A DNA stretch of 64,000 bases. Source: Nemertoderma westbladi (taxonomy: Eukaryota > Animalia > Xenacoelomorpha). The translations under genes were made by a program, and so were the position numbers. The stretch's first letter is position 1. Each line of letters begins with the position of its first letter. Under the pieces are notes generated by a model, which was not told where the DNA came from, ran no database searches, and saw only the letters and a list, made by a program, of their open reading frames with translations. The stretch is taken from contig JAUCBJ010000144.1 in the NCBI GenBank assembly GCA_032718475.1, positions 1 to 64,000 of the forward strand, written 5' to 3'. This document shows, piece by piece, positions 23,143 through 64,000 of this stretch.

Positions 23143-23173
<31 letters not shown>

Positions 23174-23398: not shown

Positions 23399-23439
23399 TA
23401 GTTACTAAACTAAACTTAGCTAAATTAAAACTACACTTG

Positions 23440-39053: not shown

Positions 39054-40262
39054 TAGCGTAAATCTCTCACTTTTCTGCTTTTAAATGTAAGAGGACAGGA
39101 GTATACTTTTTTCTTTCTCAAAAAATATATGGTGCGCGTCGTCGTCGTCCCATTCAGCCATTGCGGATCCGCACCTGTGTGGCTGTCAGGCTGTGCGTAG
39201 GTTAGTTGAATACAGCAATAGACTGATAGTTGTTACCGCAAGCAAACACGTACTGGCGTACCACAGTCTGAGTGTCTGCAGGTCTGGCAGTATTCATGTA
39301 TTCCGGTATTCAGGCAGTCAGGTATTGCAGTACAGCAGTTAGGCAGTACAGCAGTAGGCAGTAGGTTCCAACTACAAACGACTACATGACTACTGGTCTG
39401 CTGGTAGAATGGACATGGATTAGGCTATATCTGTAATACCAGGTTGCCATCTGGCCAGTGCTGCAGTCCTGTAGTGGCCATGGCATGGCAGCCAAGTTCA
39501 AGTCTGAAAGTACTGCAGTACTGATACTGACAGACTGAAGTAGGCCTATGTAATAATTACGGTCGCTACCGGTTACACCTGTACACGCAACACCAACACG
39601 GCTGCACGAGCTGACGACAGGACGAGTGCACGGTACATACAGACATCAGGACATACTGACATAAGACAGTAAGAAATGAGAGTCTGACTGTCTGAGAGGC
39701 AGTCAGACTCAGACAGTGAGTCACTGCGTCAGTCAGTCAGTCAGTAGGTACGTCAGTACGTGGCACCGGCACCGGCAGTTAGGTACAATGGCCAAATCTG
39801 GCAATGATTGTGATTGCAATATTTGGCAACCAAGCAAAATCTGGCGACATTTCTGATTGCCTGATTTGGCAACTATATAAAGCCGTTGTTGCCATATTTG
39901 GCAACTTAACTAACTCATTGAATAGCCTATGGCTTATATGGTTCTGCGTCATTAAGTCCTTCTATGGCAGTATGGTCATTCCTTAGATCCTGAAATGTTA
40001 ATGTTAGGCCTAGACAGCTAGAAAAAAGGGGTAGGGCCAGGCAGGTTACAGGTTATACTTAGACCGTTAAGTTCTAACTTCTAACCAATACTGAATACAG
40101 CAATATATCCTAATAAATGAGGTGAGAGTGTGAGTCAAAAACACAAACACAGACTGACTGGTTTATTTTTGCTAGTAATCTCTGGCGCTGCTTGGGGAGG
40201 TGGTTGATTGTTGTTTGTACCAATAATAGTTTAGTAGTTAAAGATTGTAACTGTCTGACTGT

Positions 40263-42676
40263 CAGTCAGGGAGATCATCAATTTTGGGGTTACCCCAAAT
40301 TTCGAATTCTGGTAATAGGCTGTCGAAAATTGGGGTTTTTTGTTCAAATTTGAGGTATTTTTAGGCTCATAATAACGAGTGTTGCTGCGACTTAGGGAAA
40401 CTGTTGGAGCAACTTTTACTTTTAATATGTTAAAATATATTGTAAAATAAGAACTTTCATCGATGCAATAAAATATTTCACCGATGCAAACATGCTTTTA
40501 TTGGGGGGCGAAAATTGAAATTTGAGGTTAAACCTCAAATTTGAGATAAAACCTCAAATTTCGCCAGTCTTTACAACATCACCAGCCTGCCAGCAGTAGG
40601 GTGTAGCAGTAGGCTTTGCTGCTTAGTGCTTATAGAGCTTGGTGATAATGGGTGACCAGTGTAACCAGTGACCAATGTGACATGACATGTTTAAAACTTT
40701 AATGATTGTTAACTCCTTTAGTGATTGGTGAGAAAAATGCAGAAGACTAGAGAAATTCGCTATACTATTCGCCTTACTGCCTTACTGTTGGTAAGAAGAA
40801 CAGTAGACCAAAGCCTCACTGTTGGGAGATTCAAGCTCACACAGCTGCACAGTCACAGACTCAGGAAGGCCTACTATATCTTGTAGATGTCAGGATGTTG
40901 AATCAATTCCAGAATTTGGAAGTTTACATATTCTGGCATTCATCTGTTCTGTTCATCATTCACATCACACATCTTCGGAAAAAAATATGTTTTCTGGTTG
41001 TTGATGTCCTCTTTAAAACTTTGTGTACATCAAATGAAGCCATTCCTCTCCTGACAGCCTGAAGACTTATGTAATATTCGCCTGCCCTAGCTCTATCTGT
41101 CAATTGGAATACTGTACCATCATTCTTCCACAGTTTGGAGCCCATTTCTAGAGAAATGTTGCCGCAAAGGTTGACGTGGTTTATACAATATATGTGGACT
41201 TGATTATTTTGTTAGTTATTCTATACGACTGGAGACTCTAAAGGCCATGCCCCGCCCATCTGCCCATGCTCCCATGTCTGCATGTCCCATACATCACCTC
41301 TTCTTATCCAGTTATCAGGGCCATTAACATATGGAACATGCTGGACCTGGAACACAGTAGAAACATCATCATCACTAATCGCTATTCTTTTAAACAGTCT
41401 TTAGACTCTGCTTTCTTATCAAGACATCTGAAATGTTTTAGAAATCTAAATGACTGTTTGTTTATACTATACATACATACATCCTTTTAAATTGACCTTA
41501 TGAGGAACCAGAATCATTTATAACTTGGGCAAAAAGTATAACCTTTTTCACTAACCTATTCTCGAGGCTTTATCTCATCTCTGGCTGGAGTACACCTTGC
41601 ACTCTTGCAGGCATTAAATTTGCATTGCAATAGTGTGTAGGGATGGATTTTGCTCAACTTTCGATCAAAAATTTGATCAACACATTCAATGAAATTTTAG
41701 AAATTCCTCCAAAAATATTTTGGCACTTTGTCAAATCAAATAGGTGACCCTCCTAATCTGCTAATCCTGAAATCACCAGCTAATCCTGAAATTTAGTGCA
41801 GGTGATATCAATATTCCTAACTCTTGTTTATTGTTTTTTGGTTACTTTCAACTCACTTCTGTAACCTGCTCCTTTGCTAACCCTGTAACCGGGCACTAGT
41901 GAAAGTGACTTTAGTTTAGGTGATTTCAGGATTAGCAGATTAGGAGCTAGGAGGGTCCCCTATTTGACACAAATGCCAATGTTTTATTTTACTTTTTTTA
42001 CCGGGAGAAAAAGTGAAATCAATGCAAAATTATGGCTCTATGGTACATTATTATGTGGCAATATTATTCAATATTATTGCAGGTTGCTGTGTTGCCGACT
42101 TTGCAAAAGCTGTGCCCAACAAAAAGTTACAATATTCAGATATTATGGGGACAACTTTTTCCCTACCAGTAGGAAAAAAAAGTAGGCCTACTACTTTTTC
42201 TCCCGATTTTATGGCATATTCAAGCAAAAAAGTAACAATATAAAAATATAAGTTCTTTAAGCTCTGTACTTCGTTTTATATGTCTACCATCTGATCATAC
42301 CACCCCACTGCACCCCTACCGCCCTGCCAGTAGCCTTTTTAAGTATAAGCCTTTTTAAACTAATACTGTATATGTTTTAAATATTATATTTCACAACACT
42401 CAGACACTAGGCCTACATCAGTTTATTTTTTTACCTTTGCAATACAGTAACAAGCTAACAACTGAACAACTACTGAACAAGGCCAACTATGACTTCTGGC
42501 CAATTATGACTATTCTGTCTGTATCTGACTGACTATGCTGCTATGAAATTCAAATTTGGGGTAAAACTCCAATTTAGAGAATTAACCTAACCTTGTATTA
42601 AATTTGAGGTAATTCCAAAATTGGGTCTATAATTTGAAATTTGAGGTATTCTCAAATTTGATGATCTCCCTGACTG
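40263..42676. mobile_element. Non-autonomous DNA transposon B nested in A, CAGT...ACTG ends, 5-bp TSD ACTGT
   Basis: TIR CAGTCAGGGAGATCATCAA; ACTGT at 40258-40262 and 42677-42681; subterminal AATTTGRGGT repeats. Confidence 0.85.
41736..41967. mobile_element. Small MITE nested in B
   Basis: Inverted ends TCAAATAGGTGACCCTCCTAATCTGCTAATCCTGAAATCACC and its near-reverse complement; TSD not resolved. Confidence 0.65.
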
Positions 42677-43932
42677 ACTGTGTAATGCTGATACAATTGC
42701 CCAGCAATCTAAATCATCCTTCACTCTATATATCACTGTATCAGTTCAGTATATCTCACAGTCTCAGTATCTATCTTTCCATTCCTACATCATTACATAC
42801 AGACAGACAGACATATAACAGTATAATGAAAATAATTTCATCCCGTTTTTCATTAGCAGATTAGGGCCTACTAGAAACAATTTGGTTGAATCCCTTAAAT
42901 GCCTTCAGCCTTAACACGCGTTTTGGTTTTCTCAGTCTTTCTAAATTTTAACACTTTTTCTTCTGTCACGCCGTTTCTCAAACTTTAATGCCCCCTTGCC
43001 TTCTTGCTGCCTTTTGGTGATGTTCACGTTCTGACGTTGTCAAATATTATTACGTTTATTTCCATTTCAGTCTTTTAAGCATGTGATTCTTTAGTTTTGT
43101 TTATGCCTATAATACCATATCATATACCAGTCAGCCAGTCTACCAGTACGGTATCTGTTACAGACTCATCCATCTGTCCATTAACATATTAACAACATAT
43201 CAAATACATTCTGACATTTCATCAACTAATGTTTATAAATCATCACAACTCGACAAGGGTAAGCAAGCAGTAAGCAATTTTGAAGTAATTTATAATGACA
43301 GAGTTACTGACAGGCTGACAGGGCTGCACAATAATAATTGTTGCCAAAAATGGCAACCATTATTTTTCTTTAATTCTAATGGTTGCCAAAAATGGCAATA
43401 ATTATTTTAGGCACATTTCGGCCTATTGCTAAGAGAAATTCACACGATGATTTTTTTTCTTATACGGTCAATTATATTTAAATTTCGCGCTCTTTTCACT
43501 TACCTATTTACCAAAATGCGATTTTGCTTCTGGGCGTGCGAAAATTAGAAAAACCAAAAGTTGCCAGATTTGGCAATAAACATTGCCATATGTGGCAACT
43601 TTTGAGGTTGCCAGATTTGGCCATTGTACCTAACTGACCGGTCAGCCGGCAGCCGGTAGCGCAGTCAGGCGGGGGTCCTACGAATTACCCAAAAAAACAC
43701 AATATTACCCAAAAAAAACACAAAAATACACAAAAAAATACAAAAAATTACACAAAAAAAACACAAAAATACACAAAAAAAACACAAAAAGATTTCTTAA
43801 TTAATGGAAAGGAGCAGGTTACTGCCTGACTGCAGTCAGGAACACTGCTGCACTGGTCACAATTGACAATATGTCCAATTTACAGCCAGAATGTGTCCGC
43901 GGAAAACGCTCTCAGAGTGAAATTTCTCCAGA

Positions 43933-46900
43933 CAGTAGGGAACATACCCTTAAATAAGCTCCAAAAGTGGGTTCCTATTTAAGGAAAATGGCTCTTATTT
44001 AGGGGTTTTTGGGCCTTTTTTGGATATTTTTTCGATATAATATGCAATAACTTGTTTCAGGAAAAAATACCGCATAATTTTATTTCACAATGTAAAAGTT
44101 GGGTCTTTCTTGAACATAAAGCAAAAAACCAGAAAACATTTCACCGTCCGGTTTTTTTTCTACAAGCGTTTTAAAATTGCATCAAAAATACGACTAGTTC
44201 CTAAATAAGGGGGATTTTTTAAATTTACCTTATTTAAGATATCGAAATTGTACACATAAATACTAAAAGTCCCTAAATAAGAACTTTTTGACCTGGGTTT
44301 CTTATTTAGGAATACAATTGTATTCCAAAATCTGCACATTCCTTAAATAAAATAAATATTCCTTATTCCTTACAGTATGTGTTACACTTCTTTCATAATT
44401 CTTTGATTTATGTCAGTCTGTATATTGCTAATTGTTGGGATAAGAATAAGGACAATGGTTGCACTGCACTCTATAAATCCTCTATAGAATATCGTATCAT
44501 AATGAAGTTGCTAGCACTGGCATTCTTACCTCACACGGTAGCATAGAATAGCCCATTGATATTCAAAAGAATAGCCCATCGCCCATCTGAGCGCACATAC
44601 ATTGTCACGTATTTCGATGAAACACGACTCAAGTAACTGGACATCGCCGCACAGTTTCGAAAAACTAACTTGTGTCCTGCATTTCCTCTTCTGCTCCGCG
44701 TGACGCCCCACTTAGATGGATTGTCCACAATGTCATGTCAATAGGCACAAAGATGGTTCGGTTGGGCAGCTGATAGACGTTATGAAGGTTAAAGATGATG
44801 ACTGGATGACGTTTTGGCTCAACTGGCTCAGGCAGGAGTGGGACACGTTCGTGGGACCTTTGCGCAGCATGAAGTGAGCAAAGCCTTAGCTAGCCCTAGC
44901 TGATAGGGGCCCCACCCCATTCAGCCATTAACATGTTGTCTTTCGTTAGTCAGAGGTCGTTCAACACAATACTCGTATCCTTAATTTGCCTCATAGCGTT
45001 CGTTTGTTTTTTACCAAACTTCAGATTATTTCAAATCTTTTGACAGACTACATACATACTAAGTTTCGTTTAATTTCATTAAGGAATGACCGAGTTATTA
45101 GCGATAAAAAATTTACAACGACGACAGACAACTCGTTAATGCACCCATATGCTAAGGCTTCGCTCACTTGAACGTGGCTCTCCACCACATTCAATCCGGT
45201 TCGACGCAGTTTGTTGCTCGTTGTTGCTCATTGTTGCTCATTGCTGTTCGTTGTGCTTTATTATTTCTCATTGTTGGTCATTGTTGCTCATTGTTGGTCA
45301 TTGTTGCTCGTTGTTGGTCATTGTTGCTTGTTGGTGCTCATTGTTGCTCGTTAGTTGTACTTTATTATTGCTCGTTGTTGCTCGTTGTACTCTATCTGTC
45401 TATTATTGCTCGTTGTTGCTCATTATTGCTCATTGTTACTCGTTGTTGTACTTTATTATTGGTCGTTCAATCGTTGTTCCTCATTGTTGCTCGTTGTTTC
45501 TCGTTGTTGTACTTTATTATTGCCCATTGTTGCTCGTTGTTGCTCAATATTACTCGTTGTTGCTCGTTCAGTCATTGTTGCTCATTGTTGCTCGTTGTTG
45601 TACTTTATTATTGCTCATTGTTGCTCAATATATCTCGTTGTTGCTTAATATAACTCGTTGTTGCTCGTTCAGTCGTTTTTGCTCATTATTGCTCGTTGTT
45701 TCTCGTTGTTGCTCATTGTTGCTCGTTGTTGTTCTTTATTATTGCTCAGTGTTTCTCATTGTTGCTCGTTGTTGCTCAATGTTACTCGTTGTTATACTTT
45801 ATTATTGCTCAATGTTACTCGTTGTTACTCATTGTCATTGTTGCTCATTGTTACTCGTTCCTCATGTCCTAATTATTGGTCGCTGTTTCTCGTTGTTGTA
45901 CTTTATTATTGCTCATTGTTGCTCGTTGTTTCTCGGTTTTGTACTTTATTATTGCTCATTGTTGCTCAATATATCTCGTTGTTGTTCAATATAACTCGTT
46001 GTTGCTCGTTCAGTCGTTGTTGCTCATTATTGCTCATTGTTGCTCGTTGTTGTTCTTTATTATTGCTCATTGTTGCTCAGTGTTTCTCATTGTTGCTCGT
46101 TGTTGCTCAATGTTACTCGTTGTTATACTTTATTATTGCTCAATGTTACTCGTTGTTACTCATTGTCATTGTTGCTCATTGTTACTCGTTGTTCCTCATG
46201 TCCTCATTATTGGTCGTTGTTTCTCGTTGTTGTACTTTATTATTGCTCATTGTTGCTCGTTGTTTATCGTTGTTGTACTTTATTATTGCTCATTGTTGCT
46301 CGTTGTTTCTCGTTGTTGTACTTTATTATTGCTCGTTCAGTCTATGTTCCTCATTGTTGCTCGCTGTTTCTCGTTGTTGCTCATTGTTGCTCGTTGTTGC
46401 TCATTATTTCTCATTGTTACTCGTTGTTGCTCATTGTTGCTCGTTGTTGTACTTTATTATTGCTCGTTCAGTCGTTATTCCTCATTGTTGCTCACTGTTT
46501 CTCGTTGTTGCTCATTGTTGCTCGTTGTTGTACTTTATTATTACTCATTGTTGCTCGGTGTTTCTCAATGTTGCTCGTTGTTGCTCGTTCAGTCGTTGTT
46601 CCTTATTATTGCTCATTGTTGTTCGTTGTTTCTAGCTGTTGCTCATTGTTGCTCGTTGTTGTACTTTATTATTGCTCATTTTTGCTCGTTGTTGCTCATT
46701 GTTTCTCATTGTTGCTCAATGTTACTCGTCGTAGTCGTAGTTGCTCATTGTTACTCGTTGTTGCTCATTCAGTCGTTTTCCTCATTATTGCTCGTTGTTG
46801 TACTTTATTATTGCTCAATGTTACTCGTTGTTGCTAATTGTTGCTCGTTGTTACTCGTTGTTTTGTTACTCATTGTTCATTCGTTGCTCGTTGTTGCTTA

Positions 46901-47781
46901 TTTTTGGTCATTGTTGCTCGTTGTGCATTTTTGCACCTATCCAATTAAGCTCAGAAGCTCCCTTATCTCTGCATCTTACAATGTCCTGTCAAGGTTAGGC
47001 GGGTAGGAGGTCATAACTGTTATAAGCAGGCAGATAAGGGCAGAAGGAGGACGGGGCTGGGAGACGAGGTTATAAGAGACATAATATAAGGATATTTAAT
47101 TTAATTTATTTAATTTAATATATAAGAAATGAGGCCAGTATTGGTTGACAGAAGGAGATACGCAATGCGTATCCTATTGCGCCTCATAATAGCCTCTCGT
47201 CAACAAGTCAACCCCATAGACTAGCGGCACTGGCTGTTTCAGCTGACGGGGCTCTGTCGAAAACGCGTCCCTGATGCAGTAAGGGCCCTCTTTTGAGGAG
47301 CAATATTATTATTGTCGCGGACCGGAACTGCTTCTACTCTCTGTGAGAAATGAGAAATATTTAATTTATTTAAGGAGTATGCAGATTTTGGAATGAAATT
47401 GTATACCTAAATAAGAAACCCATGTCAAAAAGTTCTTATTTAAGGACTTTTAGTATTTGTGTACAATTTCGATGTCTTAAATAAGGTAAATTTAAAAAAT
47501 CCCTCTTATTTAGGAACTGGTCGTATTTTTGATGCAATTTTAAAACGCTTGTAGAAAAAAAACCGGACGGTGAAATGTTTTCTGGTTTTTTGCATTATGT
47601 TCAAGAAAGAACCAACTTTTATATTGTGAAATAAAATTATGCGGTATTTTTTACTGAAACAAGTTCTTGCATATTATGTCGAAAAAATATCCAAAAAATG
47701 CCCAAAAACCCCTAAATAAGAGCCATTTTCCTTAAATAAGAACCCACTTTTGGAGCTTATTTAAGGGTATGTTCCCTACTG
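43933..47781. mobile_element. Non-autonomous DNA transposon C nested in the MULE, ~420-bp TIRs, CAGT...ACTG ends, 5-bp TSD CCAGA
   Basis: TIRs about 43933-44352 and 47365-47781 starting CAGTAGGGAACATACCC; CCAGA at 43928-43932 and 47782-47786. Confidence 0.9.
45210..46925. repeat. Degenerate 10-bp minisatellite (TTGTTGCTCR)n with higher-order variants
   Basis: Direct reading. Confidence 0.93.
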
Positions 47782-49558
47782 CCAGAAAACAATGCTAAAT
47801 TTCATTTGAAAACCGGCAGTGAAATTTTAACATTGGCATTTTAAAAATTATGCCAGTAGGCCCTATGCCATTAGAATCGCCATAAAATTATGTATAAATT
47901 AATTTGAGAATTAGAATCTCATCGTTCTGTCGTTGGGATAACTATCATAATATTAAAAATAAAAATGTGCCCAGCTTCTGCTTTGAGTACTAGTGGAGTT
48001 ACAGCCTAAATATGTCCGGAAATATAATCGCAGCCTGTGAAGGACAAATAGTGGCTGTATGGACACTTTCTGGCTGTGAATATATGGAAAATTTTTGGCT
48101 GAGCTTCAGCCAGAAAGTGACCAGTGTTACTAACTGTACTGCAGTAGAAGGCTTTTCTAACCAAAACAATAAACGATAACCAAAGAACATAGGTTACACT
48201 TAGTCTTATTTTTCCAACCCTATCATGCCTATAGGATATAAATTATTTTTGTCTTTTGGGGTTTTTGGGTAATATTGCAGTATTGTGTTTTTTTGTCTTT
48301 TATTGTGTTTTTTTTGGTAAATTTTTGTGTTTTTTTGTATTTTTGTGTGTTTTTTTTGTGTATTTTTGGGTAATTTTGTGTTTTTTTGGGTAATTCGTAG
48401 GACCGGTCAGGCGGTAGGCAGGCAGGCTGGCAGGTAGGTCTGTAAGTAGTTGCCAAGTCTGATAGTGATTGTACAGTCTGACAGTCGGTGAGAAGTCAAA
48501 AATTGGACTTGAGTCCAAAATTGGACTTCGACTCCAGTTCAAGTCCAAAATTGGACTTCTGTGAGTCCAATATTGGACTTCAAATCAGCCAATTGTTCCA
48601 GGCAGGGCCTTGGGTAATTGGATCGGGCGGGATTTTTTTTCTTAAATCGAAAATATATCAAAAAATAAGAGTTTTGAACAGGGGGACCTGAAATTCACCA
48701 GGCAGCCAGGGGGAACTTTTTTTATAAGGCTTTGAATTTTTACAAAAGTCCAATATTGGACTTTAATTCCAATTTTGGACGTGACATTGAGAATCGAACT
48801 TAAAGGTACATGAAGCATGACAGATGAGAGACAGCCAGACAGCTGTTAAGTTATGGAAAGTTACCTTTGCAGCTCTGTATGTATCTGCAGTGTAATGACT
48901 GTACTGTACTTAGAATATAATGGTACATTCTAGCATTCTAGGTACTTTGTACTTTACGTTTAGCATATTGTTTAGTTTACAATTTACATTCATGTTACCG
49001 TATGTCTAACCTTACAGCCTTATGTACCCAGGACTTTATAGTGTCTTTAGGACTAGATTAGATTATGCTCCAACAAATATTTAATTACAAATTATAGTTG
49101 GTGGATACTGGTAGCAATGCCAGGTTAGCCAACTGCAGCTGCTGCTAAGGCTAACTACAGTACAAGCTACGATTTCGTCTAAGGCTATAGGAGCCCTATC
49201 AGAAAGAAATACTACAAGTTGATGCTACCACCATCTCTTCTAATTTTTCCATACAACAGGCAGACAGGGAGGGTATTTTAAAACGGCTGGATAACAGGAT
49301 AATGAAATGGGATTAGTCACTGATTAACGTGTTGGGGTCTCCACATAATAAGTACAGAAGTAACAAGTAACACACGTCATAATCATAAACCAATTGAGGG
49401 AAAGGAACAGGTTACAGAGGCAGGCTTTTCTAACTAAAACAATAAACGCCCACTTTTGACTTTACCAATTGAAGGAGCCCTATAACCTCACCACATACTA
49501 CTACTACAATCAGCATGATTCATTGCAGCTGCATTATATATATAGGCCCTATAATGTA

Positions 49559-49742
49559 TTAAGAATGCTGTGCCGGCTTGTTGACAAAAGTGCGCCTCCA
49601 CAACTCCCTTACACTCTTAATAGTCTTAAAGCCTTATCAGTATCACCCATGACATTTGCTAGATCATCCGCATCTTCAAGGCCAGTGTCCTTTAAGACAG
49701 TAAGAAAGATGCGTCTCAAGAAAGTCATGGGCTGTCCACCAT
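49559..49742 (-). mobile_element. RTE-like LINE 3' end, interrupted by the LTR element
   Basis: Homologous to 24225-24356; continues after 62816. Confidence 0.85.
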
Positions 49743-50972
49743 TGTTCGCGCTTTTGAAGACCTTTAGCAGTTTAACCTGCCAAAATTTATATGTCTTTTA
49801 GTTAATTAAAACCACTTTAGCATACGACAATAATTTATGCTAATACGCAAAACATTAGCCGAAGTCAGCCCATGCGCGATCATTCACCCGATGGATCTAC
49901 ACCCGGGAGACTGAATTCGGATGCTTGAATTGTATTATTACAGTGTAAGGTTGCAGTGTATACCTAATGTATTATTCGATAGATCGTTAATAATTAATCT
50001 CTGACAGATATTATTGGCTTTCGGGAAATATTAACAGTTCCTTTAGGACGTGGCGCTTTATCTATTTAAACAGAACTAAGACTTATACTAAAACGCAACG
50101 ATACTGCTTATGATTAAAGTATAAAGCGTATTCTTTAGGAAATACTTTGTTACCAATCACGATCATACACACTATTCTGCCGACAGTCAGTACATTTGAT
50201 CACACATAAAGAGAGCAGTAATTGACTCACGTAGGGTCTGCTAAATAACATTGGATTCAATACACACCACATTAATATAAATCGCAATTGTTATGTATAG
50301 CCGGTCTCTCTAACCTGTAGTGTTATCAAGAAAATTGGGAATTGGGTGATTTATCCGTATTATCCAAATAGCAATATTTCCATCAACAAATAGGTACAAT
50401 TAATAACTGACGGTAAAATAACAGTACAAGCAATATGATTAATGCATTTAAGATTGATTAAATTGATCGGTAGTTAGTTAGGTAACAGTTTATACTTTCG
50501 ATAATTCAAGCAGTTTACTATAGTTCTTACTAAAAGGCCGGTGTTTCTGGCTTAGACAGCAATAACAACAAAGTATCAAGAAAAAACCGTAAGACTGAAC
50601 ACTCTCCTTATGATCGACTAAAAGCTACACGTCGACAGGAAAAATCGCTCTGATTGGCTCAAGCCAAACAAAGAACCGTGCATCTAATGGCTGTTTCCAT
50701 GTCAGCAACCAGCTGTTAGATGTCGTAATATGAATCATCACGGCTAAGCTGTGAAAGGTAGTTGGTGCATTACAAGTTTTTTGCCTTACCATGTCCACCA
50801 AAACACGTATATAGCAGAATGATTTTTATGTCCGTTAAAACACCTGTAAAGGTACCTTGCGGGCGAGGGGAATATATATACAGTCCGAGAACCCTTTTAG
50901 AGTATTCCAGCGCCTGGGGGGGAACTGGCCAGCAAAGGCAAACGTATCAGTTATCCCACAAAAGCTTTTACA
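49743..50972 (-). repeat. 3' LTR (1230 bp)
   Basis: Direct repeat of 61587-62816; preceded on the minus strand by the purine-rich GGGAGCGG (PPT-like, 50973-50980). Confidence 0.96.
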
Positions 50973-51050
50973 CCGCTCCCAGAAAATGGGATTTAAGTCT
51001 ATAAAATATACAAAATCACAGTTTCTAAAATACAAAAATACTCTAAACAG

Positions 51051-53177
51051 TTAGTCTTTCTTGCGCGGACGGCGTTTACGCAGTTTTTTGAAGCTAGCAA
51101 GAGTCCTTTTCTCTTTGGGGCGAGCCACTTTACTAGGAGGGCTATAACTCCTGGGTGAAGGGTGCAATATGATTGCATCAGAAGGTATGGGATTGCGATC
51201 GGTATATCCGCCGGTCGAAGTACCGGGTTGATTGACATCAACGTCAGGGGAGAGGGGTCTAACGGCTTTGAGAGCTCGTTTCAAGACAGCCGCTCTTACG
51301 GGTCCTTTACGAGTGGTCTGAACGAGGGCCGTGGGTGGACCATAGGCAGTTAGAAACTTCCTTGGTTTAATGGTTCTTTCTAACTCGCGTTCGCGGGCTC
51401 GATACTCGTAAGGCCGTCGATATACTTCTTGTAACTCAGGGTGTGAGTTGACGAATAAGTCTCCATAGGCAGGGTCTTGACGGATAAAGTTTATTAAGTT
51501 GTAAGACTGGATGTCACTCGGATTAATGCTCCTGAGGAATTTGCGTACATATTTGGTTGAAATACATTCTCCAACGCGTTTCAATAGTTCATAACTTGAT
51601 AGGCGCGATTTCTGCTCGACGGAGGCAAACAAATATGGATGGAACGCATAAACTCCTTCGTAGGCGCGTCCAGGATAATAGCGATGGCGTGAATCACAAT
51701 GTAAATCAGCGTTCGCTTCCCAAGCTCTGATATAACGTAGTACAATCATTTCATCTACGCTCTCTAAATCATGGTTGAAGGGACAATCAAAGCTGGCGTG
51801 TCCTTTTAATTGACAATGATGGCATTGAGTCATAAATTGGGGGCAGACGGCAAAAATGTGCAAATTATTAAGCCGACAATATGCACAATAGATTTCCATC
51901 GACGGTTGCTCGTGGAAATAGGAACAAAGATCGTTGGTGTCCATGGACGTAATATGGTCTCTCGATGCGCACAGCCGACAACGTTGTCGAGAAACATAAT
52001 TGGCATGGCGATAATCATACGCAGTAAGACACTGTGGACCTTGATACCATTCCAATATATAGTCGCTATCGCTACTCCGAGCCGTGGGGGGCTGAATCTC
52101 TTCCGATTCTAAACATATGGGTTCGTCTTCCCCTTGTATAGTTGAGGTAGGTATGGCCGTCTCCTCAAGTGGACCTACCGTCTGAATTTCCACGACAGAA
52201 TAACCGGTGGGGATCCGAGGTCTTTGGATAACCGAGGAGTGCAGGTTTATCACACAAATGTCTCGGAAAATAGCGAATCCAGCGCTATCCAACTTCTCCG
52301 CAGCTGAGTCTCTTAAGCTGAGCTTGGTCAAAGCGCGGTCTTTGAATTGGCTATCCACGTTGCGAAACGGGGTTAAAAACCGTCGGAAACATTCAAAGCG
52401 GATGAATTTATTATGTTCATCTAGCTTAGCGAGTTTGGTCCCAAGGATTAATGGATGGGCGCGTATAGTACGACTGCACACATCGGCTAGCCAACCGGAA
52501 AGTGCGGTGTTTTCGAAGATTGTGTAGATAGCTAAGGAGGGACGGAGTGGAACACTCATGAAGCTATACACGGCGCCAGGTGCGGTCAACGGTCCGTCAA
52601 AGTATAATCGAGAATAATGGTCTCCGTATACTTGTTGATAGTTGATGGGATTTCCGACCTTGAAATTCCACCCGTATTCCTGAAAGGCAAGATGTCCGAT
52701 GGAAGTTCGTTGCACCTTTGTAATGTTGCTAGACACATTAGCATACATGGTGCGAAAGAAACCTCGGCCTTCGGCCCAAGGCGCTATCAGCTGAGTATCC
52801 ACGAAAGGATAGGGGATATTCTCCATATTCCGAAAGTCGTTTTGGAGATCTCCATAAACAGCTGAGCCGATTTTAACGATTCTTTCGTTGAATAACATCT
52901 CGAGAACGGGTTGGGGTAACATCGATCCATCGATACCCATGGCCGGTTTGCGTTCGGTGTCAATGACGTAACGCTGCGCGAGTTCGAATTGTCCATGTCG
53001 GAGATTCTTTTGCGTTTCGGTGAGAGTTTCGAAGGAATAATCGATCGCGTCGGAACACGCTCGCGTAAACACGTGAGTGGAGCCAGCTAATCCGCGTATC
53101 AAGCTATCCACAAACGCTTGTAAAGGTAGAGTATATCGCTCTCTAATACCAAGGTCATCTTCTATCAATTCCGTCAT
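51051..53177 (-). CDS. LTR-element ORF2 (708 aa): DEDDy 3'-5' exonuclease-like N-terminal domain, three CCHC-like zinc knuckles, basic tail
   Basis: VIDTE (Exo I), LPQPVLEMLFNERIVKIGSAVYGD (Exo II), PLT...VYSFMS (Exo III-like); CRLC..H..C, CAYC..H..C, CHHCQLKGHASFDC. The ORF is certain; the domain call is from motif recognition only. Confidence 0.65.
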   Translation of the reverse strand: MTELIEDDLGIRERYTLPLQAFVDSLIRGLAGSTHVFTRACSDAIDYSFETLTETQKNLRHGQFELAQRYVIDTERKPAMGIDGSMLPQPVLEMLFNERIVKIGSAVYGDLQNDFRNMENIPYPFVDTQLIAPWAEGRGFFRTMYANVSSNITKVQRTSIGHLAFQEYGWNFKVGNPINYQQVYGDHYSRLYFDGPLTAPGAVYSFMSVPLRPSLAIYTIFENTALSGWLADVCSRTIRAHPLILGTKLAKLDEHNKFIRFECFRRFLTPFRNVDSQFKDRALTKLSLRDSAAEKLDSAGFAIFRDICVINLHSSVIQRPRIPTGYSVVEIQTVGPLEETAIPTSTIQGEDEPICLESEEIQPPTARSSDSDYILEWYQGPQCLTAYDYRHANYVSRQRCRLCASRDHITSMDTNDLCSYFHEQPSMEIYCAYCRLNNLHIFAVCPQFMTQCHHCQLKGHASFDCPFNHDLESVDEMIVLRYIRAWEANADLHCDSRHRYYPGRAYEGVYAFHPYLFASVEQKSRLSSYELLKRVGECISTKYVRKFLRSINPSDIQSYNLINFIRQDPAYGDLFVNSHPELQEVYRRPYEYRARERELERTIKPRKFLTAYGPPTALVQTTRKGPVRAAVLKRALKAVRPLSPDVDVNQPGTSTGGYTDRNPIPSDAIILHPSPRSYSPPSKVARPKEKRTLASFKKLRKRRPRKKD

Positions 53178-53220
53178 ATCTGCTATCTGAGTTTGTTAAT
53201 ATCAATATAAGTTAATATTT

Positions 53221-53376
53221 TAGGCAAGCGGGCGTCGCTGCCTACTCGGCTTTTTGCCCCCGGACAGTGGGTTTCTCAGCGCCGATGTACCGTTGTCGCG
53301 GTGTTTACGCCAACATGTAGCAACAGCACGACAACGATAACCGGCACAAGTCCCACCACTGTCCGTCCCAAAAGCT
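53221..53376 (-). other. Structured RNA element (long hairpin plus small hairpin) just 5' of ORF2
   Basis: Nested complementary arms GGACAGTGG/CCACTGTCC and TATCGTTGTCGTG/CGCGACAACGGTA, whose mismatches are G-U pairs only on the minus strand. Confidence 0.7.
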
Positions 53377-54796
53377 TGAATCCACTTGAGGTTATCTCGG
53401 TAGAGTTAGGGCTACTTTACAATTGCGATTAGCTACTGTAAACACACTTTAGTAGTAACATTCACCTATAAACGCACAAATTCCATACAATCGTTACTTA
53501 CTGCACACATGCATGCCATTTGTCCGTTAGTCAGTGTCTTCCAGAATGTCACGTTATTACTATGTATCCTTGGATACCAATAGTGCGCTATGTATACTCT
53601 TATGCTACGCAATGGGGCAAGCTTTTTATTGTTCCTTTTAACTTGCTTCTAATTCTAGCGTGGGTGTTGCCATGGTGACATTATGGAAAACTAGCGGTAG
53701 AATTAGGGCAATTCTCATGCATACAGATCTGGGATGTTATTTAATAGTAATTCTTTAATTGTCAATATCCTCTTTATGCATGATTTTATAAATTTTATCG
53801 GCTATTGACTATATGTTGGAGATTCTCGCGCTCTAGTACACTCAATATGAATCTCCGCTCCCATGATCTATTAATTACTGGAATTTTGGGAATGTTATAA
53901 ATTGCACAAAATGACAATTTATGAAATTCATTCGAATATGAATTTAAATTTATTCCCGTGAATTTTATTATTTGATGTTAAAATTGACACAATTTGATTC
54001 CAGAGCAGGTCTGGGGACATAGGATCCTTAATTCTATGAAAATTGTCTTTTAAGAGTATCGGTAAGTGCTACGATATCTTAATCGACTAGAATTGTTAAC
54101 GGATCTGAATTTTACAGATTTTAATAAATATTAAATTAATATTTAGGATGGGCACCGATTTATTCCAGAACTTGTCTGGGGACGTTAACCACTGATTCTA
54201 GAATTTGTCTTTCAAGTATATCGGTGGGTGCCACGATATCTTAATCGACTAGAATTACAGATGGTCAAAAGTTTAACAGATTTATTTGCGATTTACGCTA
54301 CTGTTAGAGGGACATCACGCTACTATATGTATTATTTGTTATAAGGTAGAAGAGCAATATCGCACGAAGCAATGTCAGTGTGAAGAGGCAAGTCGTTTCC
54401 AAGGTCTACCCAGAGCTTGGTTTAGCCGAGACACGAGGATCTGAACTTTGCATTCCTAATACTCTGCCTACCAATAATACTTAAATATAGTAGTGGCTTT
54501 ATTGTACTTTAAGAAGTACTGACATGTCATCTTACTATAGTCTCGCATTTATAATATAATACGGACAGTAAGGAAAGAGAAAAGAATTATTTCTCGCCGT
54601 CGCACTAGATATATTATGTAATTACGTAATAAACACTAATATATTGCACTAATCTACTAAATAATCTAAATAACATTCCACTAAATAAAATTAAATAAAA
54701 CGATTATAATAAAGTACATAATAATCCATACCTAAATATAAAATAATAATAAAAAAAATATAAAATAATATAGTCACACACCCACTCCATATATAA

Positions 54797-57700
54797 TTAC
54801 GTTATGGAGTCCCTAGATCTTTGTCGAATTAGGGAAGTGGTCGTAGGAAGAGTATCCTGCCTTCCATGGTTTCCGGACAGTTTTCGGTCTCTTTCCAGTA
54901 AACCTAAGCGACCAGCTGGGCGATTAGGCTGTCGTGTTACTTCCTCCGCTCCCTTGGCCTGTCTAATCTCCTCAGTGGTAAGATGAGGAGGCCATTCATC
55001 TTCTTCTTTACTTAGGGAGTCGGGTCCACCTAACCAGCCGGGAGTATCTATCCTTTCTTGAGGAGTTGCTCTTCTGGAATCGATGTCGGCTGGATTAATC
55101 GTCCCAAGGCAATGTCTCCATTGATCTACATTGGAGTTAATATCGTCATTATCTGAGGAGTATGGTGTTCCCTCAGTTGGATCGTCCACATCACTGCTCT
55201 CCACTTCCCCCTTTACTTGGTATACCTGTTGTTGAGGTAATCTCTCTTTGAGAGTTCTACGGGAAGGGCCAGTGAAGTACCAACCTACTCTAGTTCTTAC
55301 CGCATAAGTTTGTAATGGCTGCGGTTGAGCAGGCCGTTTCTCTAATGGCTCGAGCGCCTCATGCGCGTTTTGGCCGATGAGTATTTGCACTCCAGGATAA
55401 TCGGTTTGGAATCGAGGTATCTCAAGATGTTGGATGCACTCGTCCTCGTCCCAGTTATAAGGTTCTGCTTGAGTAGTAGCAAAGTTCTTTATAGCCACCA
55501 TTTTTACTGACCTTATACCTTGTGTTCCTAACTTATCCTGGGGGGTGGACAACACACCTACATAGTAATCTGCCGTTAGGGTAGATTTCCAAACCTGCAT
55601 AATTCCTGACATATTCAATTTAGTCCGGAACTTGGGTTGTCCAGCAAAGATATCTTCGGCTAGTTCTTGATCGATGAATGTTCCTGTGCTGCCGGAGTCA
55701 AGTAGGGCGTTCACTATGTAACTCTTGTTGGGACCATGAACTCGAACTTGCACTACAGGAAATTCTCTTATTCCTATGTTGGAAGTTGGAACTTTCCAAG
55801 ATGGTTGTTTGTCAAAAGGAGTTGGAGTAAACTCGTCAGTGTCCTTTTCATCCGTAAGTGCTCGATACACTGTGGTATTTATTAGATAACAGGATTCGTT
55901 GGCATCGGAGAATTCGTCTGTATAGAATCCTTCCCACTCAGAACCTTGGTCAGTGTCGTTCACATCACTGAATTGGACATGTAGTTCGGGCTCACTTACC
56001 TGACTCGGGTTGTCTCGTTCGAACTCACTGTGTAACAAAATGTGATGTTTCGCGCCACACTTTGCACACTTTGCGTCAGAGTAACAGGTTCGCCGTTGGT
56101 GTCCTGATCTGAGGCAATTATAGCATAACCGCTTATTCCACAGGACTGTACGTCTGTCTACAGGGGATTTCTTTAGAAATTCAGCACACGCACTCAAACG
56201 GTGAGGCCCGTCGCACAGCGCACATTTTGGTTTGATGTTACTCACCTTAACTTGGTTAACGTTATGCACTCTCGTTCTTTCTTCGGGCTTTCTTCCGTGA
56301 ATTCTCTTAGGAGACGTAGGAGGAGTTGTTGTTACCTGTTCTCTCCTGTCACTGGTTCGAGACTTGTATTTACTTACGTCTTTATAGGTCTTGTTGTCAT
56401 AGTAAGATTTTGCTGTGTCTTTCCCGCTGTCCTCTTCTTGAGAAGCTTGGCTTTCGCCGTCGTCAGTATAACACACTGGTATTATCCTTCTCCTAGAATC
56501 GGGTTTCTCACTTACCTTATTTTCCGATGTTTTCTCTCTGGCCTGCCTTATGAGTTGTAATTTTACTTCACTATCTAAGAAAGACATGAGATCAGCCATG
56601 GTTGGACTTCGTCGTTGTTGTTCATTCATGTACAACACTTTCTTGTCCCAGCGTGTACATACTCCACCCTTTGGTAAAGTAGAGACTACGGCTCCAATAA
56701 CCATGGAACTCTGGTATTCGTGCGACTTACCTAACCAGTCCAGTTGTCTACAGATCTCTTGAATTTCATCGGAAAACTCTATAATCCCACTACTAAGGAA
56801 GTGTCGGGGGGCTACTAATTTTGTATACAAATACTTAGCTATGTTATCTTTGTTACCATACCTGATGTTTAATGTATCCCAAACTTGTTTTAATCCATCT
56901 GGATGTCCAATAAACTTTAACGCCATTAACTTGGGAGGTCCTTCCAAACACTTGATGAGGAATCTAAGTTTCTCTCCGTTGGATAGTACAGAATTCTGTA
57001 TGCTATCTTTGTAATATTCGTTGAAAGGTAACCATTTCATCTCATCTCCATTGAATTTGACGATCTCTCCCACTTTGACCGCTTGGCGGGCTTCTGTTCT
57101 AGCCATCTGACGCGTAAAGCTTTCTTGGGCCATCGTGTTATTTAATATCGAATTATCGGTATATAAATTTCTCGGATCATTATCAGATCTATAGGGAATA
57201 TCATTAATAACAAGTCTATAATCACCCTTAATAGGGTTTGCTATAGGAGTTTCAACTTCACTAGCAGTATAGATGCGTGTAGGCTCTACACCTTGCGCAT
57301 GTAATACTTCAGACCTAACGGGTTGACACAATGTTACAGGGGGCATTGGTATGCCTTTTTGTATATTGACTAATTTGTCGCGTTCTAGCGCGATACTTTG
57401 CTGCACTTCTTGCAACTCTGCTCTACTTTCCCTCACCGTTCCCTTAAGTTGGTGGACAGTCTCCTGCATCTGTCCTAACAGGAGATTCATCCCCCGCCGT
57501 CCCTCTTCCACCCACTCAACCGCCGAAGCGGGAGTCGCCAACATAGTAGCGGGCTGACGCGGGACGACGGGAGACAAATTATTGATTTCTCTCTCTGCTA
57601 TCTGGACAGGGGTATTTGCATGGACTGTTCCACCGGGTACAGGCAGTGTAGTACTATGTAAAGGGAATTTAGAGTTAAGCTCTGGAAGTGTAGGGGTCTC

Positions 57701-59446: not shown

Positions 59447-61574
59447 GTTTAGTTATATAGTTGAATGCCTACTACTATAGTTTCAGTTAAAGCAAGTCTG
59501 GTAATTCAGTATGACCGCAAGCCTAGCGATTTATTACCGGTACCGTTACTCAGTGGAACGTGATATATATACAATATATTAGAATACCGGTATGCTTATA
59601 ATATATAAGTGTTATTACAGACTAGATGTGTCACAGAGTACCGGTATAATTTTAGCACAAATATAGAAATAAATATAATAAGCCTATGGTAAGTACCGGT
59701 ATGTCAATTATTTTTAGAATAATTGAATTTCTGAATATTTTGGGGTTACTTCGTTACTTTAACTTACTTTATTACCGTTATTTAAGCAGTAGTCCAACTG
59801 ACAGTGAGACCTAGTTGTTGTATGGCAGGCCTACTATTTATAAATCGTTTGAGTTGATTTATAATATTTATATACCCGTTATATGGGTTTTTGTCAATAT
59901 TTGAAATAAATGTTATTATTTCTGGGGGAGTCACTACACAGAAGCTGAACGCCTCTCAGTGAAGTGCTATTTATTTGACACTAAAACTGATAATTCTAAT
60001 TTACCTAAGTTACTTAATACTACAAATTACTTACGATACGGGTGAGATTAATTCTCTAATTAAACACAACAAAATATTACGTACGAAATTTTTAGGGTAA
60101 TTTTACAGGAAGTCTACAAACCAGTCCAACAAAGGGTTAGATTTCTGGCTATTACAAAGGACAGGGTACTACGGTATTTAAATAATAAGTAGTAGTAAAT
60201 ATATTGTACTGTCCAGATAGGAAAATACCACCGCCTGACGACCTATAACCGTATCGCTATAGGTACTACGTTATGTATCACGGATTGTTCCTACCCAGAA
60301 GCTAATAGAGCTAACGAATGTGCCTATCAACCACTTTACAACACAAATATACTGCCTACACTAATTACTTCGGAAGGCACTGTACACTAAACCCTAAATT
60401 AGGTACAAGTACCGGTATAACAAATAATCAGTAGTTAAATATACTTGAACAGTTAAAAGAACCACGGCATCTGCTGGAGTGACCGAAGCACAAAGTCGTC
60501 AGTCTTTACCTACGCCAAGCAGCCCTGATGTAGTACCGGGGTTAGTTTAACTATAACGGTATGTATAACAAGCACAATTACTGTAGGAATAAACTTGGGG
60601 ACATGAATGTTGCGAATAATCGCATAAACTCTGAATAATAAATATTACGCTACCCGTACAGAATACTCAAACAAATACAAACCAAACGCTGGCAGACTAC
60701 TATTAAGCCTAAACAAACTACTGTATGTGCAGATTCTGAAACTGTTAGTTAGTATGCGTTCTAACACGGTAGTACGACTTACTCTTTAAGAGGGGATTGA
60801 CCTTACCGCTTATGGCTGCCCCAACTTACTAACGGCACTTGATCAGACCAACTCTACACACGCAGCAATCCCTTCAGACCTAAAAATAGCTAGACAACAA
60901 TCCAGCCTACAAATATTTGAGTAATAACTATTACGGTACCTGAACAGACCACACAAACAAGCACAGGCTAAAACACTGGCAGACTACGATCAAGCCTAGA
61001 TAAACTACAGTATATGCAGACTCTGAAACTGTTAGTTAGTATGCGTTCTATCACGGTAGTACGACTTACTCTTTAAGAGGGGATTGACCTTACCGCTTAT
61101 GGCTGCCCCAACTTACTAACGGCACTTTATCAGACAAACTCTACACACGCCGTAATCTCTCCAAACCCAACCACAGTCAGACAGCAGCTCAGCCTACAAT
61201 TATCTGAACAATCTGAGCAGACTTACACGTCTTCAGCTCAATATTAACTTACTAGGAAATAAAACTGACAGAAATAAGTAAGCTCCAAAAGAAACAAGGG
61301 GTGTACAGTCCCTAATCTCTTAAACAGCCTACCGGTATACAATAATCAAAATCGAATAATACTAAATGTACTTGTACAGCAGTACCGGTACCGGTGATGA
61401 CAGTTAGGCCTACTGACCTACAAAGTACCGGTTCAGTTTTACCGGTCACTACGGTATTTTGCAACCTTATTGCCTACTGCAATAAGATTATAAACTGTTA
61501 CTGTTCGACAGAACAGTATTAAGCTGTATTTAATGCCTACACTTGCAACCTTATTGCCTACTGCAATAAGATTA

Positions 61575-61586
61575 ATAAACTGTTAC
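61575..61586 (-). other. Non-tRNA primer-binding site (GTAACAGTTTAT), putative self-priming
   Basis: Abuts the 5' LTR CA end; exact reverse complement of minus-strand LTR 62326-62337. Confidence 0.75.
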
Positions 61587-62816: not shown

Positions 62817-63012
62817 ACCATGCTTATTCACTCCATGAGGTGCACTGGCTGGTCCTCACGGCTTAAAGCGATGTCCTGCAAAGCGGAGGCGGCTTTGTTC
62901 TAGTGTCAAGCTTGGGGGAACCAATGACTGAATGAGACACCTCCAACTCCAATGTTATATAGTGTCTGGTTGGAGATGCAGAGATGTGTGCATTGTACTT
63001 GACACAGTGAAC
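62817..63012 (-). mobile_element. RTE-like LINE fragment, continuation of 49559-49742
   Basis: Homologous to 24030-24220, with small insertions and a deletion. Confidence 0.85.
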
Positions 63013-63137
63013 CTAATCAAAACAATTAGTCAATAAACATTAACTCAATAACACAATAGGTTACAGTTTACAGCTTAGTCTTATTTTTGCCATACGAAAA
63101 TACCACAGGTATGGCAGTATGGGTCTGTGGGTATGAA

Positions 63138-63232
63138 TTAGCGTTAGACCGGAGCCAGATTTTTGCCGGAGCCGGAACCGGACCGGGTAAATTCCAAAAG
63201 TACCGGAGCCGGAACCGGAGCCGGACCGGGTA
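63138..63232. mobile_element. hAT-like terminal fragment with (CCGGAR)n subterminal repeats
   Basis: TAGCGTTAGACCGGAGCC followed by CCGGAG/CCGGAA arrays; no partner end found. Confidence 0.35.
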
Positions 63233-63516
63233 GGTAAATTTAAAAAAAATATATTGAGGCCTGGTATGACTGTATGACCTAAAGGTACCGGTACCGTGCA
63301 CTGTCAGACTGTACTATAATACGACCTGGCATGTTGCAGTTAGTCCACTACACAGCTACATTTAGTGAGCCAACTTCTCCACTTTCTGACAGTCTGAATT
63401 TGTTTATACTTTATACTCATAAACCAGTACATTACGGTCTGACTGTAGTCGGGTAGTTTTATTACATATTAAATCTAACAAAACAATAGATCAACGATGC
63501 AATAGAAGAATGGTTG

Positions 63517-63965: not shown

Positions 63966-64000
63966 GAATGGTTGCAGGGTTGATAGCATCAACTCAGTCT

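What the first reader, a model, noticed from the sequence alone, without database searches (positions are those of the whole stretch)
39170..49710. Dense 8-bp scars N5-CAG/CTG-N5: excision footprints matching the resident 5-bp-TSD transposons
Seen: more than 40 perfect cases by eye of a 5-mer repeated around CAG or CTG, e.g. ACTGA-CAG-ACTGA (39526), TAAGA-CAG-TAAGA (39662), TCTGA-CTG-TCTGA (39683), ACTGT-CTG-ACTGT (40250). About 11 fall in 39170-39770 alone, where uniform composition predicts about 2 per 64 kb. Three are demonstrably 8-bp insertions relative to sister copies in this window: AATGA-CTG-AATGA (62923) and AGATG-CAG-AGATG (62974) in the LINE, and TCGTA-CTG-TCGTA (63947) in the MULE TIR. 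Established: retention of 3 terminal nt between TSDs is the Tc1/mariner footprint (TA-CAG/CTG-TA), whereas 5-bp-TSD hAT5 and Transib are expected to excise via flanking hairpins. Inference: a transposase with Tc1-like staggered cleavage but a 5-bp non-TA target, so active that its scars build local sequence.
Basis: partly seen in the sequence, partly recalled or inferred. Interest (0 to 1): 0.85.

Follow-up and report, generated by a model that had tools for sequence, protein, structure and literature searches.

The report
Eight-base scars of five-base-target transposons
Parts of this animal's non-coding DNA are packed with a five-letter word repeated around CAG or CTG, eight-letter insertions that are most likely the scars left when a family of jumping genes that ends in CAG and duplicates five letters on landing cut itself out, which would point to a way of cutting that I did not find described for such elements.

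Summary
N5-CAG/CTG-N5 occurs 91 times in the window (67 in the stated range) against 2.7 in shuffles. The excess is specific to a 5-base repeat and to this spacer. Five cases are +8 insertions against sister copies in the window. Collapsing scars also restores the exact target duplication of a fourth element. Four non-coding elements begin CAGT, end ACTG and carry 5-bp target duplications. Public contigs show one site empty and scar-only, while the window has scar plus element. Best reading (0.8): these are excision footprints from a break 3 nt inside one strand, rejoined as in Sleeping Beauty but at a 5-bp target that prefers N-CWG-N, so each scar makes a new preferred site. No transposase was found. 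hAT5 is the likeliest family (about 0.5) and Transib fails. The scar fixes the cutting geometry, not the chemistry. Scars sit in local hot spots (two upstream of gene starts) and are absent from a young 13-kb LTR element, so high present activity is not shown. The scan noted TA-type scars in other genomes before; my two word searches listed no 5-bp form.

The parts
39070..39775 (.). Densest scar cluster in low-depth (apparently single-copy) DNA: 18 visible plus 2 nested scars, 22% of the bases
   Evidence: a contig of run X1 matches 39060-39801 with no difference, contigs of X2 and X3 cover it with 21 and 9 gap letters at unlisted places
39776..43636 (.). Element A: non-coding TIR element, CAGTTAGGTAC...GTACCTAACTG, 5-bp TSD ACCGG, subterminal GTTGCCA x10; contains B and 28 scars
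   Evidence: contig depth far above the flank
40250..40262 (.). Scar ACTGT-CTG-ACTGT whose second copy is the left TSD of element B; site seen empty, scar-only and scar-plus-element
40263..42676 (.). Element B: CAGTCAGGGAGATC...GATCTCCCTGACTG, TSD ACTGT, subterminal AAATTTG x13; nested in A
43673..48405 (.). MULE-like host element (9-bp TSD GTCAGGCGG) into which D and C are nested; not a scar maker
   Evidence: superfamily label inferred from TSD length
43833..48136 (.). Element D: CAGTCAGGAACACTGGTCAC / CAGTTAGTAACACTGGTCAC ends (18 of 20), TSD TACTG; visible only after collapsing the scars at 43821 (across the junction) and 43843 (inside the left TIR)
   Evidence: empty-site paralogues at about 63650 and 49405
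43933..47781 (.). Element C: CAGTAGGGAAC...GTTCCCTACTG, 443-bp TIRs 94% alike, TSD CCAGA, subterminal TAAATAAG repeats; carries a 10-bp satellite (45211-46924)
44917..44929 (.). Scar CCATT-CAG-CCATT missing (8 left out) in most other copies of C in three runs
   Evidence: X1 1003 of 1003 depth, X3 5000 of 5134, X2 754 of 2159, X4 0 of 65
47782..49742 (.). Further scars (11), including 49693 in a LINE copy (12-nt gap against the sister copy = 8-nt scar plus 4)
62817..64000 (.). Continuation of the same hot region beyond the LTR insertion: 10 scars, with 62923, 62974 and 63947 exact +8 insertions
14401..16356 (.). Second hot spot: 10 scars; 9 lie upstream of the start of a BTB-BACK-Kelch (Keap1-like) gene on the minus strand, one about 15 nt from the first ATG, and one is in the predicted first intron
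   Evidence: gene structure read from ORFs, no RNA data
24392..24895 (.). Two scars 0.6-1.1 kb upstream of the DZANK1-like start at about 25471
49743..62816 (-). Young LTR retroelement (LTRs 99.9% alike, TSD ACCAT, DUF1759 ORF) splitting the hot region; no scar in 402 CWG; serves as internal clock and control

Best explanation
The N5-CAG/CTG-N5 words are eight-base insertions, most likely excision footprints of the resident cut-and-paste elements that start CAGT, end ACTG and duplicate five bases. Shown: the words, their +8 nature, four such elements with 5-bp duplications, and a preference for N-CWG-N among the duplicated 5-mers. Inferred steps: (1) a transposase encoded elsewhere inserts the element with a 5-nt stagger; (2) on excision it breaks the transferred strand at the tip and the other strand 3 nt inside, so both flanks keep a 3'-CAG overhang; (3) the two overhangs pair with one A:A mismatch and are ligated, and repair gives CAG or CTG about equally; (4) the net change per visit is +8 nt, and the new N-CWG-N word is itself a preferred target, so scars nest and chain; (5) visits are confined to local hot spots, possibly open germline chromatin (untested). 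The enzyme is most likely of the hAT5 group (about 0.5), otherwise a Tc1/pogo-like enzyme with a 5-bp stagger (about 0.2) or something unclassified (about 0.3).
For: 91 against 2.7 expected, specific to k=5 and to the CWG spacer. Spacer = first or last three bases of 4 of 4 elements; repeat length = their TSD length. Exact +8 gaps against sister copies at 62923, 62974, 63947, 43843 (other TIR arm) and, with 4 extra bases, 49693. Collapsing scars restores element D with an exact TSD, a result not used to define the pattern. Public contigs: B site empty (X4 joint 40249-42677; X2 loose end) and scar-only (X3 joint 40256-42676; X1 variant with one mismatch), against scar plus B in the window; the 44917 scar is absent in most C copies of X1 and X3; an X1 contig has a scar CAATA-CTG-CAATA that the window lacks. 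CAG:CTG = 48:36, p=0.23 against 1:1. The period-8 match is exactly 5 long in 53 of 84 and 8 or more in 5 of 84. Longer cores are rare: CAGCTG 0, CATG 1, CAGT/ACTG 1 against 86 CWG in 12,940 bases. Palindromic target bias: N-CWG-N in 19 of 84 against 3-4% background; no G at position 2 and no C at position 4 in 74 of 84 against about 65%; TSDs of B and C are N-CWG-N. Sleeping Beauty leaves TA-CAG/CTG-TA after a cut a few nt inside the non-transferred strand (PMC6943129, PMC5224488, passages).
Against: No transposase: 120 frames of 38 aa or more from the hot regions gave no transposase family, and TIR scans found nothing usable. The cleanest link, one site seen both as N5-element-N5 and as N5-CWG-N5, was not obtained. 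The scar-only form at the B site is best read as the state before B arrived. The forms compared are copies of a multi-copy element rather than proven alleles, and the tool marks both joints 'between: not known'. Of the two 8-nt gaps among the 12 rows shown (146 more not shown), one (40764) is not a recognisable scar. Re-targeting of old scars is no more than proportional: 6 of 19 N-CWG-N targets sit in an older scar with at most one mismatch, against 27% of all CWG in hot regions. TSDs of A (ACCGG) and D (TACTG) are not N-CWG-N. Two other gene starts (acyl-CoA synthetase-like about 6554, SOCS-like about 29800) have no scars upstream. Hot regions were delimited from the scars themselves, so rates inside them are inflated.
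Confidence: 0.8

Rival explanations
1. Same elements, different route. Excision is blunt or hairpin-type, and the scar comes from interrupted gap repair off a sister chromatid that still carries the element, or from collapse of the element by deletion, leaving a few terminal bases between the two TSD copies.
For: Also explains the terminal bases and both TSD copies; some shorter classes are elevated in hot regions (N5-CA/TG-N5 19 against 2.8; N5-C/G-N5 38 against 8.1).
Against: It predicts a spread of lengths and longer remnants: CAGT/ACTG 1, CATG 1, CAGCTG 0 against 86. The shorter classes are not spacer-specific (C/G 5.6 against A/T 4.5 per 1000; CA/TG 8.3 within a range of 2.5-10.8).
Confidence: 0.1
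2. The scars come from an insertion mechanism unrelated to these elements, for example a repair polymerase adding CAG at 5-nt staggered breaks, and the match to the element ends is coincidence.
For: No transposase seen and no strict occupied/footprint pair; hot regions have a general 2-3.5-fold excess of short duplications.
Against: 4 of 4 elements with 5-bp TSDs end in exactly these three bases; one scar is continuous with an element's TSD; I know of no such mechanism (recall, not searched).
Confidence: 0.06
3. Slippage or ordinary 8-bp tandem duplication in CAG-rich, low-complexity DNA.
For: 2 of 84 are pure 4-nt repeats (TCAG)n and (ACAG)n; 4 of the 91 lie in a satellite.
Against: The inserted CWG is not templated by the empty site; the match stops at 5 in 53 of 84; control spacers give 2-10 against 84.
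Confidence: 0.03
4. Assembly or sequencing artefact.
For: Run X1 may be the source of the window and so is not independent.
Against: Contigs of a second sample cover 39060-39693 with 2 substitutions and 21 gap letters, and 39664-39801 identically; no scar in two long coding exons or in the LTR element.
Confidence: 0.01

Closest known systems
Sleeping Beauty / Tc1-mariner canonical footprint TA-CAG-TA or TA-CTG-TA (PMC6943129 and PMC5224488, passages read)
   Same: Three terminal bases kept between both TSD copies, CAG or CTG; the elements here start CAGT, as I recall many Tc1/pogo elements do (recalled).
   Different: Target is a variable 5-mer with N-CWG-N bias, not TA; net gain +8 rather than +5; no transposase seen.
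hAT5 group of hAT transposons (PMC9004415 and PMC12730594, passages read; original Repbase Reports 2007 not seen)
   Same: 5-bp TSD; invertebrate host; third terminal base G as in hAT ends (PMC1131882, supplementary legend passage); short subterminal repeats as described for Hermes (PMC10368747, passages).
   Different: Studied hATs leave heterogeneous, flank-derived hairpin footprints (TcBuster, PMC3499496; pathway summary in PMC5499845; passages); here the core is constant and element-derived. I found no hAT5 terminal sequence or footprint to compare.
Transib / RAG (PMC1131882, passages)
   Same: 5-bp TSD; some families have palindromic target bias (cCAWTGc).
   Different: Transib ends are invariably CAC (heptamer CACAATG); these are CAG. 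The flank-hairpin route keeps no element bases.

Membership tests
hAT5 | 5-bp TSD | tested here: met
   4 of 4 elements: ACCGG, ACTGT, CCAGA, TACTG; feature from PMC9004415 and PMC12730594 passages
hAT5 | hAT-type terminus, third base G | tested here: met
   All ends CAGT; rule from PMC1131882 passage. Weak, since Tc1-type ends share it (recalled).
hAT5 | hAT transposase (BED finger, DDE, hAT dimerisation domain) in the Blackjack-related lineage | not testable with these tools
   Elements are non-coding: 0 of 120 frames hit a transposase family; no genome held; TIR scans empty
hAT5 | Terminal and subterminal sequence like described hAT5 consensus elements | not testable with these tools
   No hAT5 sequence in the passages read or in the one supplement searched
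canonical hAT (Ac, Hermes, TcBuster) | 8-bp TSD | tested here: not met
   TSDs are 5 bp
canonical hAT (Ac, Hermes, TcBuster) | Heterogeneous hairpin-type footprints built from flank sequence | tested here: not met
   Constant CWG core independent of flank; contrast PMC3499496
Transib | 5-bp TSD | tested here: met
Transib | CAC termini with heptamer-spacer-nonamer | tested here: not met
   Ends are CAGT in 8 of 8; rule
Tc1/mariner | TA target duplication | tested here: not met
   TSDs are variable 5-mers
Tc1/mariner | Footprint = 2-4 terminal bases between TSD copies (works-like feature) | tested here: met
   3-nt CAG/CTG core, 48:36; definition
Tc1/mariner | DD34E/D-type transposase, two hydrolyses without hairpin | not testable with these tools
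   No enzyme found; a scar cannot tell hydrolysis from a shifted hairpin (PMC6943129 itself notes a hairpin route that would give canonical footprints)

The most novel reading that the evidence does not exclude
A eukaryotic transposase lineage, either hAT5 having moved its first cut from the flank to 3 nt inside the element or a Tc1/pogo-like enzyme having traded TA for a 5-bp stagger, combines cohesive 3-nt excision with a 5-bp target whose preferred core (CWG) is the very word its scar writes. It acts as a self-seeding, locus-targeted mutator that grows promoter-proximal DNA in 8-bp steps, and it leaves a countable record of germline visits and of their order.
Probability: 0.45. Interest if true: 0.8.

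Novelty: new variant of a known kind. Interest (0 to 1): 0.64.

Why it matters
TSD length and donor-cutting geometry are used as fixed traits of transposon superfamilies. The two 5-bp-TSD groups I could check in print (Transib, hAT5) belong to lineages described as making flank hairpins, which keep no element bases. A uniform N5-CWG-N5 scar would be direct genomic evidence that one 5-bp group cuts differently, and it gives an exact prediction for an excision assay. It also defines a recognisable mutational signature (+8 nt) that supplies 2-22% of the bases in the hot stretches, falls next to gene starts, hides TIRs and TSDs from annotation (element D), and can be used to order nested insertions and map where transposases act in the germline.

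Tried and rejected
Transposase search: Pfam scan of 120 frames from 39060-45200, 46930-49750 and 62810-64000 gave only sub-threshold unrelated hits (the satellite 45200-46930 was left out). Collapsing scars opened no ORF above 102 aa. TIR scans: metagenome contigs 0 and 0, prokaryote genomes 0, viral contigs 0 and 0 for 19-20-mers. The 14 single matches to a 16-mer diverge from element C within three further bases and each locus holds only one, so they were rejected as chance. A homologue search with the acyl-CoA synthetase-like ORF gave nothing above 35% identity, so no contig of this organism was reached that way. No whole genome is held. The tool for contigs around a protein was closed, so loci of other animals were not examined as controls. 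Only one laying of public contigs was obtained, so indels in the single-copy cluster and at the Keap1-like promoter remain unlisted. No RNA holder listed. Rfam: none in 39000-50000; tRNA: none. A graded footprint series (N5-C-N5, N5-CA-N5) was tested and not established. Preferential re-landing in old scars beyond the N-CWG-N bias was not shown (12 of 84 against 10.8%, p=0.2; with one mismatch 22 of 84 against 14.8%, p=0.005, confounded by clustering). Reading the elements as 8-bp-TSD hATs starting at the internal TAGGG fails, because the 8-mers on the two sides differ. Three papers sought by recalled id were not held. PMC6004678 had no passage for the terms.
Full report
Observation. A scan of the window finds 91 perfect N5-C[AT]G-N5 words, 54 with CAG and 37 with CTG, 67 of them in 39170-49710 and 16 in 39170-39770. 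Dinucleotide shuffles in 1-kb blocks give 2.7 for the window (max 6 of 40) and 0.67 for the range (max 4 of 100). The excess is a spike at repeat length 5 (k=6: 1; k=7-10: 0; k=4: 19 against 8.9, five of them satellite copies) and at this spacer (46.7 per 1000 occurrences after masking; 17.1 for CCC/GGG; 9.7 or less for the other 30 classes). Fourteen unrelated viral loci give 4 of 2122. Seven of the 91 are redundant (three satellite copies, two mirrored TIR arms, two chain links) and were dropped for statistics, leaving 84.

Host and distribution. The window is animal DNA: ORFs match BTB, BACK and Kelch, SH2 and SOCS box, and a double-zinc-ribbon ankyrin protein whose best listed relatives are 32-40% identical invertebrate proteins. 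Scars are confined to 14401-16344, 24392-24883, 39070-49693 and 62923-63970. The last two are one region split by an LTR element at 49743-62816 whose LTRs are 99.9% alike and which has 0 scars in 402 CWG, against 51 in 258 at 39060-45200. Stretches 4000-14299, 16401-24299 and 25001-36860 have 0 of 284, 244 and 263, although much of them appears non-coding, so selection alone is unlikely to explain the pattern. The LINE copy in the hot region has 3 scars in 381 bases, while its two sisters have 0 in 506 and 0 in 588: these scars were acquired in place. Two clusters lie just upstream of predicted starts (Keap1-like about 14920, DZANK1-like about 25471); two other gene starts have none; no RNA data were available.

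They are insertions. Against sister copies, 62923, 62974 and 63947 are exact 8-nt gaps, and 49693 is a 12-nt gap made of a scar plus 4 bases. 43843 is an 8-nt gap against the other arm of the same TIR. The inserted CWG is absent from the empty site, and the period-8 match is 5 long in 53 of 84, 6 in 21, 7 in 5 and 8 or more in 5, so these are not 8-bp tandem duplications. Iterative collapse reveals 6 older scars interrupted by younger ones, against none for seven control spacers, and accounts for 22% of 39060-39775 and 2-10% of the other hot stretches.

The elements. Three TIR elements with exact 5-bp TSDs are visible directly: A 39776-43636 (ACCGG), B 40263-42676 inside A (ACTGT) and C 43933-47781 (CCAGA). 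After collapse a fourth appears, D 43833-48136, with TSD TACTG on both sides. One scar had landed across its left junction and one inside its TIR, and two paralogues show the empty site. All eight ends begin CAGT, and the ends of A, B and C carry short subterminal repeats. None codes for anything recognisable. The spacer of the scars equals their first or last three bases, and the repeat length equals their TSD.

Public contigs (four runs, at most three samples; X1 may be the window's source; tables were cut to the best rows). Depth over A, B and C is tens to hundreds of times that of the adjoining contig, so they are repeats (the tool cautions that this is no copy number). At the B site, X4 joins 40249 to 42677 and an X2 contig ends with the 15 letters that precede 40250, which is the empty single ACTGT. 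X3 joins 40256 to 42676, which is ACTGT-CTG-ACTGT without B, and X1 shows the same with one mismatch. An X2 row with four letters between is ambiguous in strand. The window has scar plus B plus TSD. The scar at 44917 is left out in X1 (1003 of 1003 depth), X3 (5000 of 5134) and part of X2 (754 of 2159), and is not left out in X4. An X1 contig has CAATA-CTG-CAATA where the window has CAATA. At 40778 most copies in X1-X3 read CAG where the window reads CTG. Against the reading: both joints are marked 'between: not known'; the forms are copies of a repeat rather than proven alleles; B with plain TSDs and no scar was not among the rows shown; the 8-nt gap at 40764 is not a recognisable scar; and the gap at the 41304 scar is 7 nt.

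Target. Among 84 duplicated 5-mers, 19 are N-CWG-N (3-4% expected, p about 1e-10), and 74 avoid G at position 2 and C at position 4 (about 65% expected, p about 5e-6). The bias is palindromic, as expected of a dimeric integrase. Every scar therefore writes a new preferred word. Six of the 19 such targets are the centre of an older scar with at most one mismatch, in line with the 27% of hot-region CWG that look scar-derived. Feedback is thus plausible but not more than proportional. The idea of testing this came from earlier finding e1-9988772.

Mechanism. Sleeping Beauty cuts the non-transferred strand a few nucleotides inside the element, leaves 3' overhangs and is repaired to TA-CAG-TA or TA-CTG-TA (PMC6943129, PMC5224488; passages). 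The same geometry at a 5-bp target gives exactly the words seen, with the middle base set by repair of an A:A mismatch; observed 48:36. Longer cores are nearly absent and shorter ones are not spacer-specific, which favours direct joining of 3-nt cohesive ends over interrupted gap repair. The scar does not reveal chemistry: two hydrolyses, a flank hairpin with a CAG loop opened at a fixed place, or a hairpin on the element end would all leave it (inference; the three pathways are summarised in PMC5499845, passages).

Comparison. Transib has 5-bp TSDs but invariant CAC ends (PMC1131882, passages): not met. hAT5 has 5-bp TSDs and sits in the Blackjack-related lineage (PMC9004415, PMC12730594; passages), and hAT ends have G at position 3: both met. 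The protein could not be tested, and studied hATs leave heterogeneous flank-derived footprints (PMC3499496, passages). Tc1/mariner fits the footprint but not the TA target. So the elements work like Sleeping Beauty at the donor site and like hAT5 or Transib at the target; membership is open, with hAT5 about 0.5.

Not found in print. Ten full-text searches, covering hAT5 with TSD or excision, excision footprint with 5-bp target and CAG, footprints with indel spectra, and CAGT-ended non-autonomous elements, listed no report of this scar or of any hAT5 footprint. I saw most hits only as listings with abstract starts. The library lacks most subscription journals and Repbase Reports. One supplement was searched (no hit; the supplement store gave no answer), and bioRxiv supplements are closed, so hAT5 end sequences may be in files I could not see. 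Other papers opened gave nothing decisive: PMC10368747 and PMC4763223 (passages on hAT ends and hairpins), 10.64898/2026.07.01.735963 (one naming passage), PMC6004678 (no passage).

Verdict. Real, strongly non-random and most likely excision footprints of the resident 5-bp-TSD elements (0.8). A new variant of a known kind: the footprint type is textbook, while its combination with a 5-bp, CWG-centred target and its density are not described in what I could search. The enzyme, present activity and the cause of the hot spots remain open.

Noticed in passing
window 4001-32000 and 59001-62000, scattered: TACAGTA/TACTGTA is also in excess (19 against 2.7 in the hot regions) and has a different distribution, with clusters at 15001-17000 and 19001-21000; probably ordinary TA-type Tc1/mariner footprints from a second family.
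   Followed up: partly
window, hot regions and 59001-62000: TAGGCCTA is enriched (7 against 0.35 in hot regions) and ACCGGT clusters at 59001-62000; these could be 2+2-nt footprints at TA.
   Followed up: no
window 49743-62816: Young LTR retroelement on the minus strand inserted into a LINE copy: 1230-bp LTRs 99.9% alike, TSD ACCAT, a 1551-aa DUF1759 ORF (Bel/Pao-like, label recalled) and a 714-aa ORF with no Pfam match; no pol-length ORF among ORFs of 100 aa or more.
   Followed up: partly
window 43673-48405 and 63517-63965: Two MULE-like elements with GGGTCCTACGAATTACCC ends and 9-bp TSDs (GTCAGGCGG, GAATGGTTG); the first holds a three-level nest (MULE > D > C > satellite).
   Followed up: partly
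window 6491-8323: Intronless acyl-CoA synthetase-like ORF whose full-length relatives among the scored candidates are only 22-30% identical and, where named, bacterial or fungal; a divergent host gene or an old transfer.
   Followed up: no
window 25440-34499: DZANK1-like gene in few, long exons with a SOCS/SH2 gene (29211-29801, minus strand) nested between them.
   Followed up: no
window 36868-39053, 1-929, 2937-3919, 45211-46924: Satellites of 19, 28, 28 and 10 bp units; the 10-bp one carries four copies of TCGTT-CAG-TCGTT, a scar-like word amplified with the array.
   Followed up: no
window 21878-22393 and 31853-32225: Further small inverted-repeat elements without CAG ends and without scars.
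   Followed up: no
window hot regions: General 2-3.5-fold excess of 5-7-nt-period duplications with any spacer compared with the rest of the window, e.g. a 6-nt insertion at 62942 in the LINE copy; suggests frequent break repair there.
   Followed up: partly
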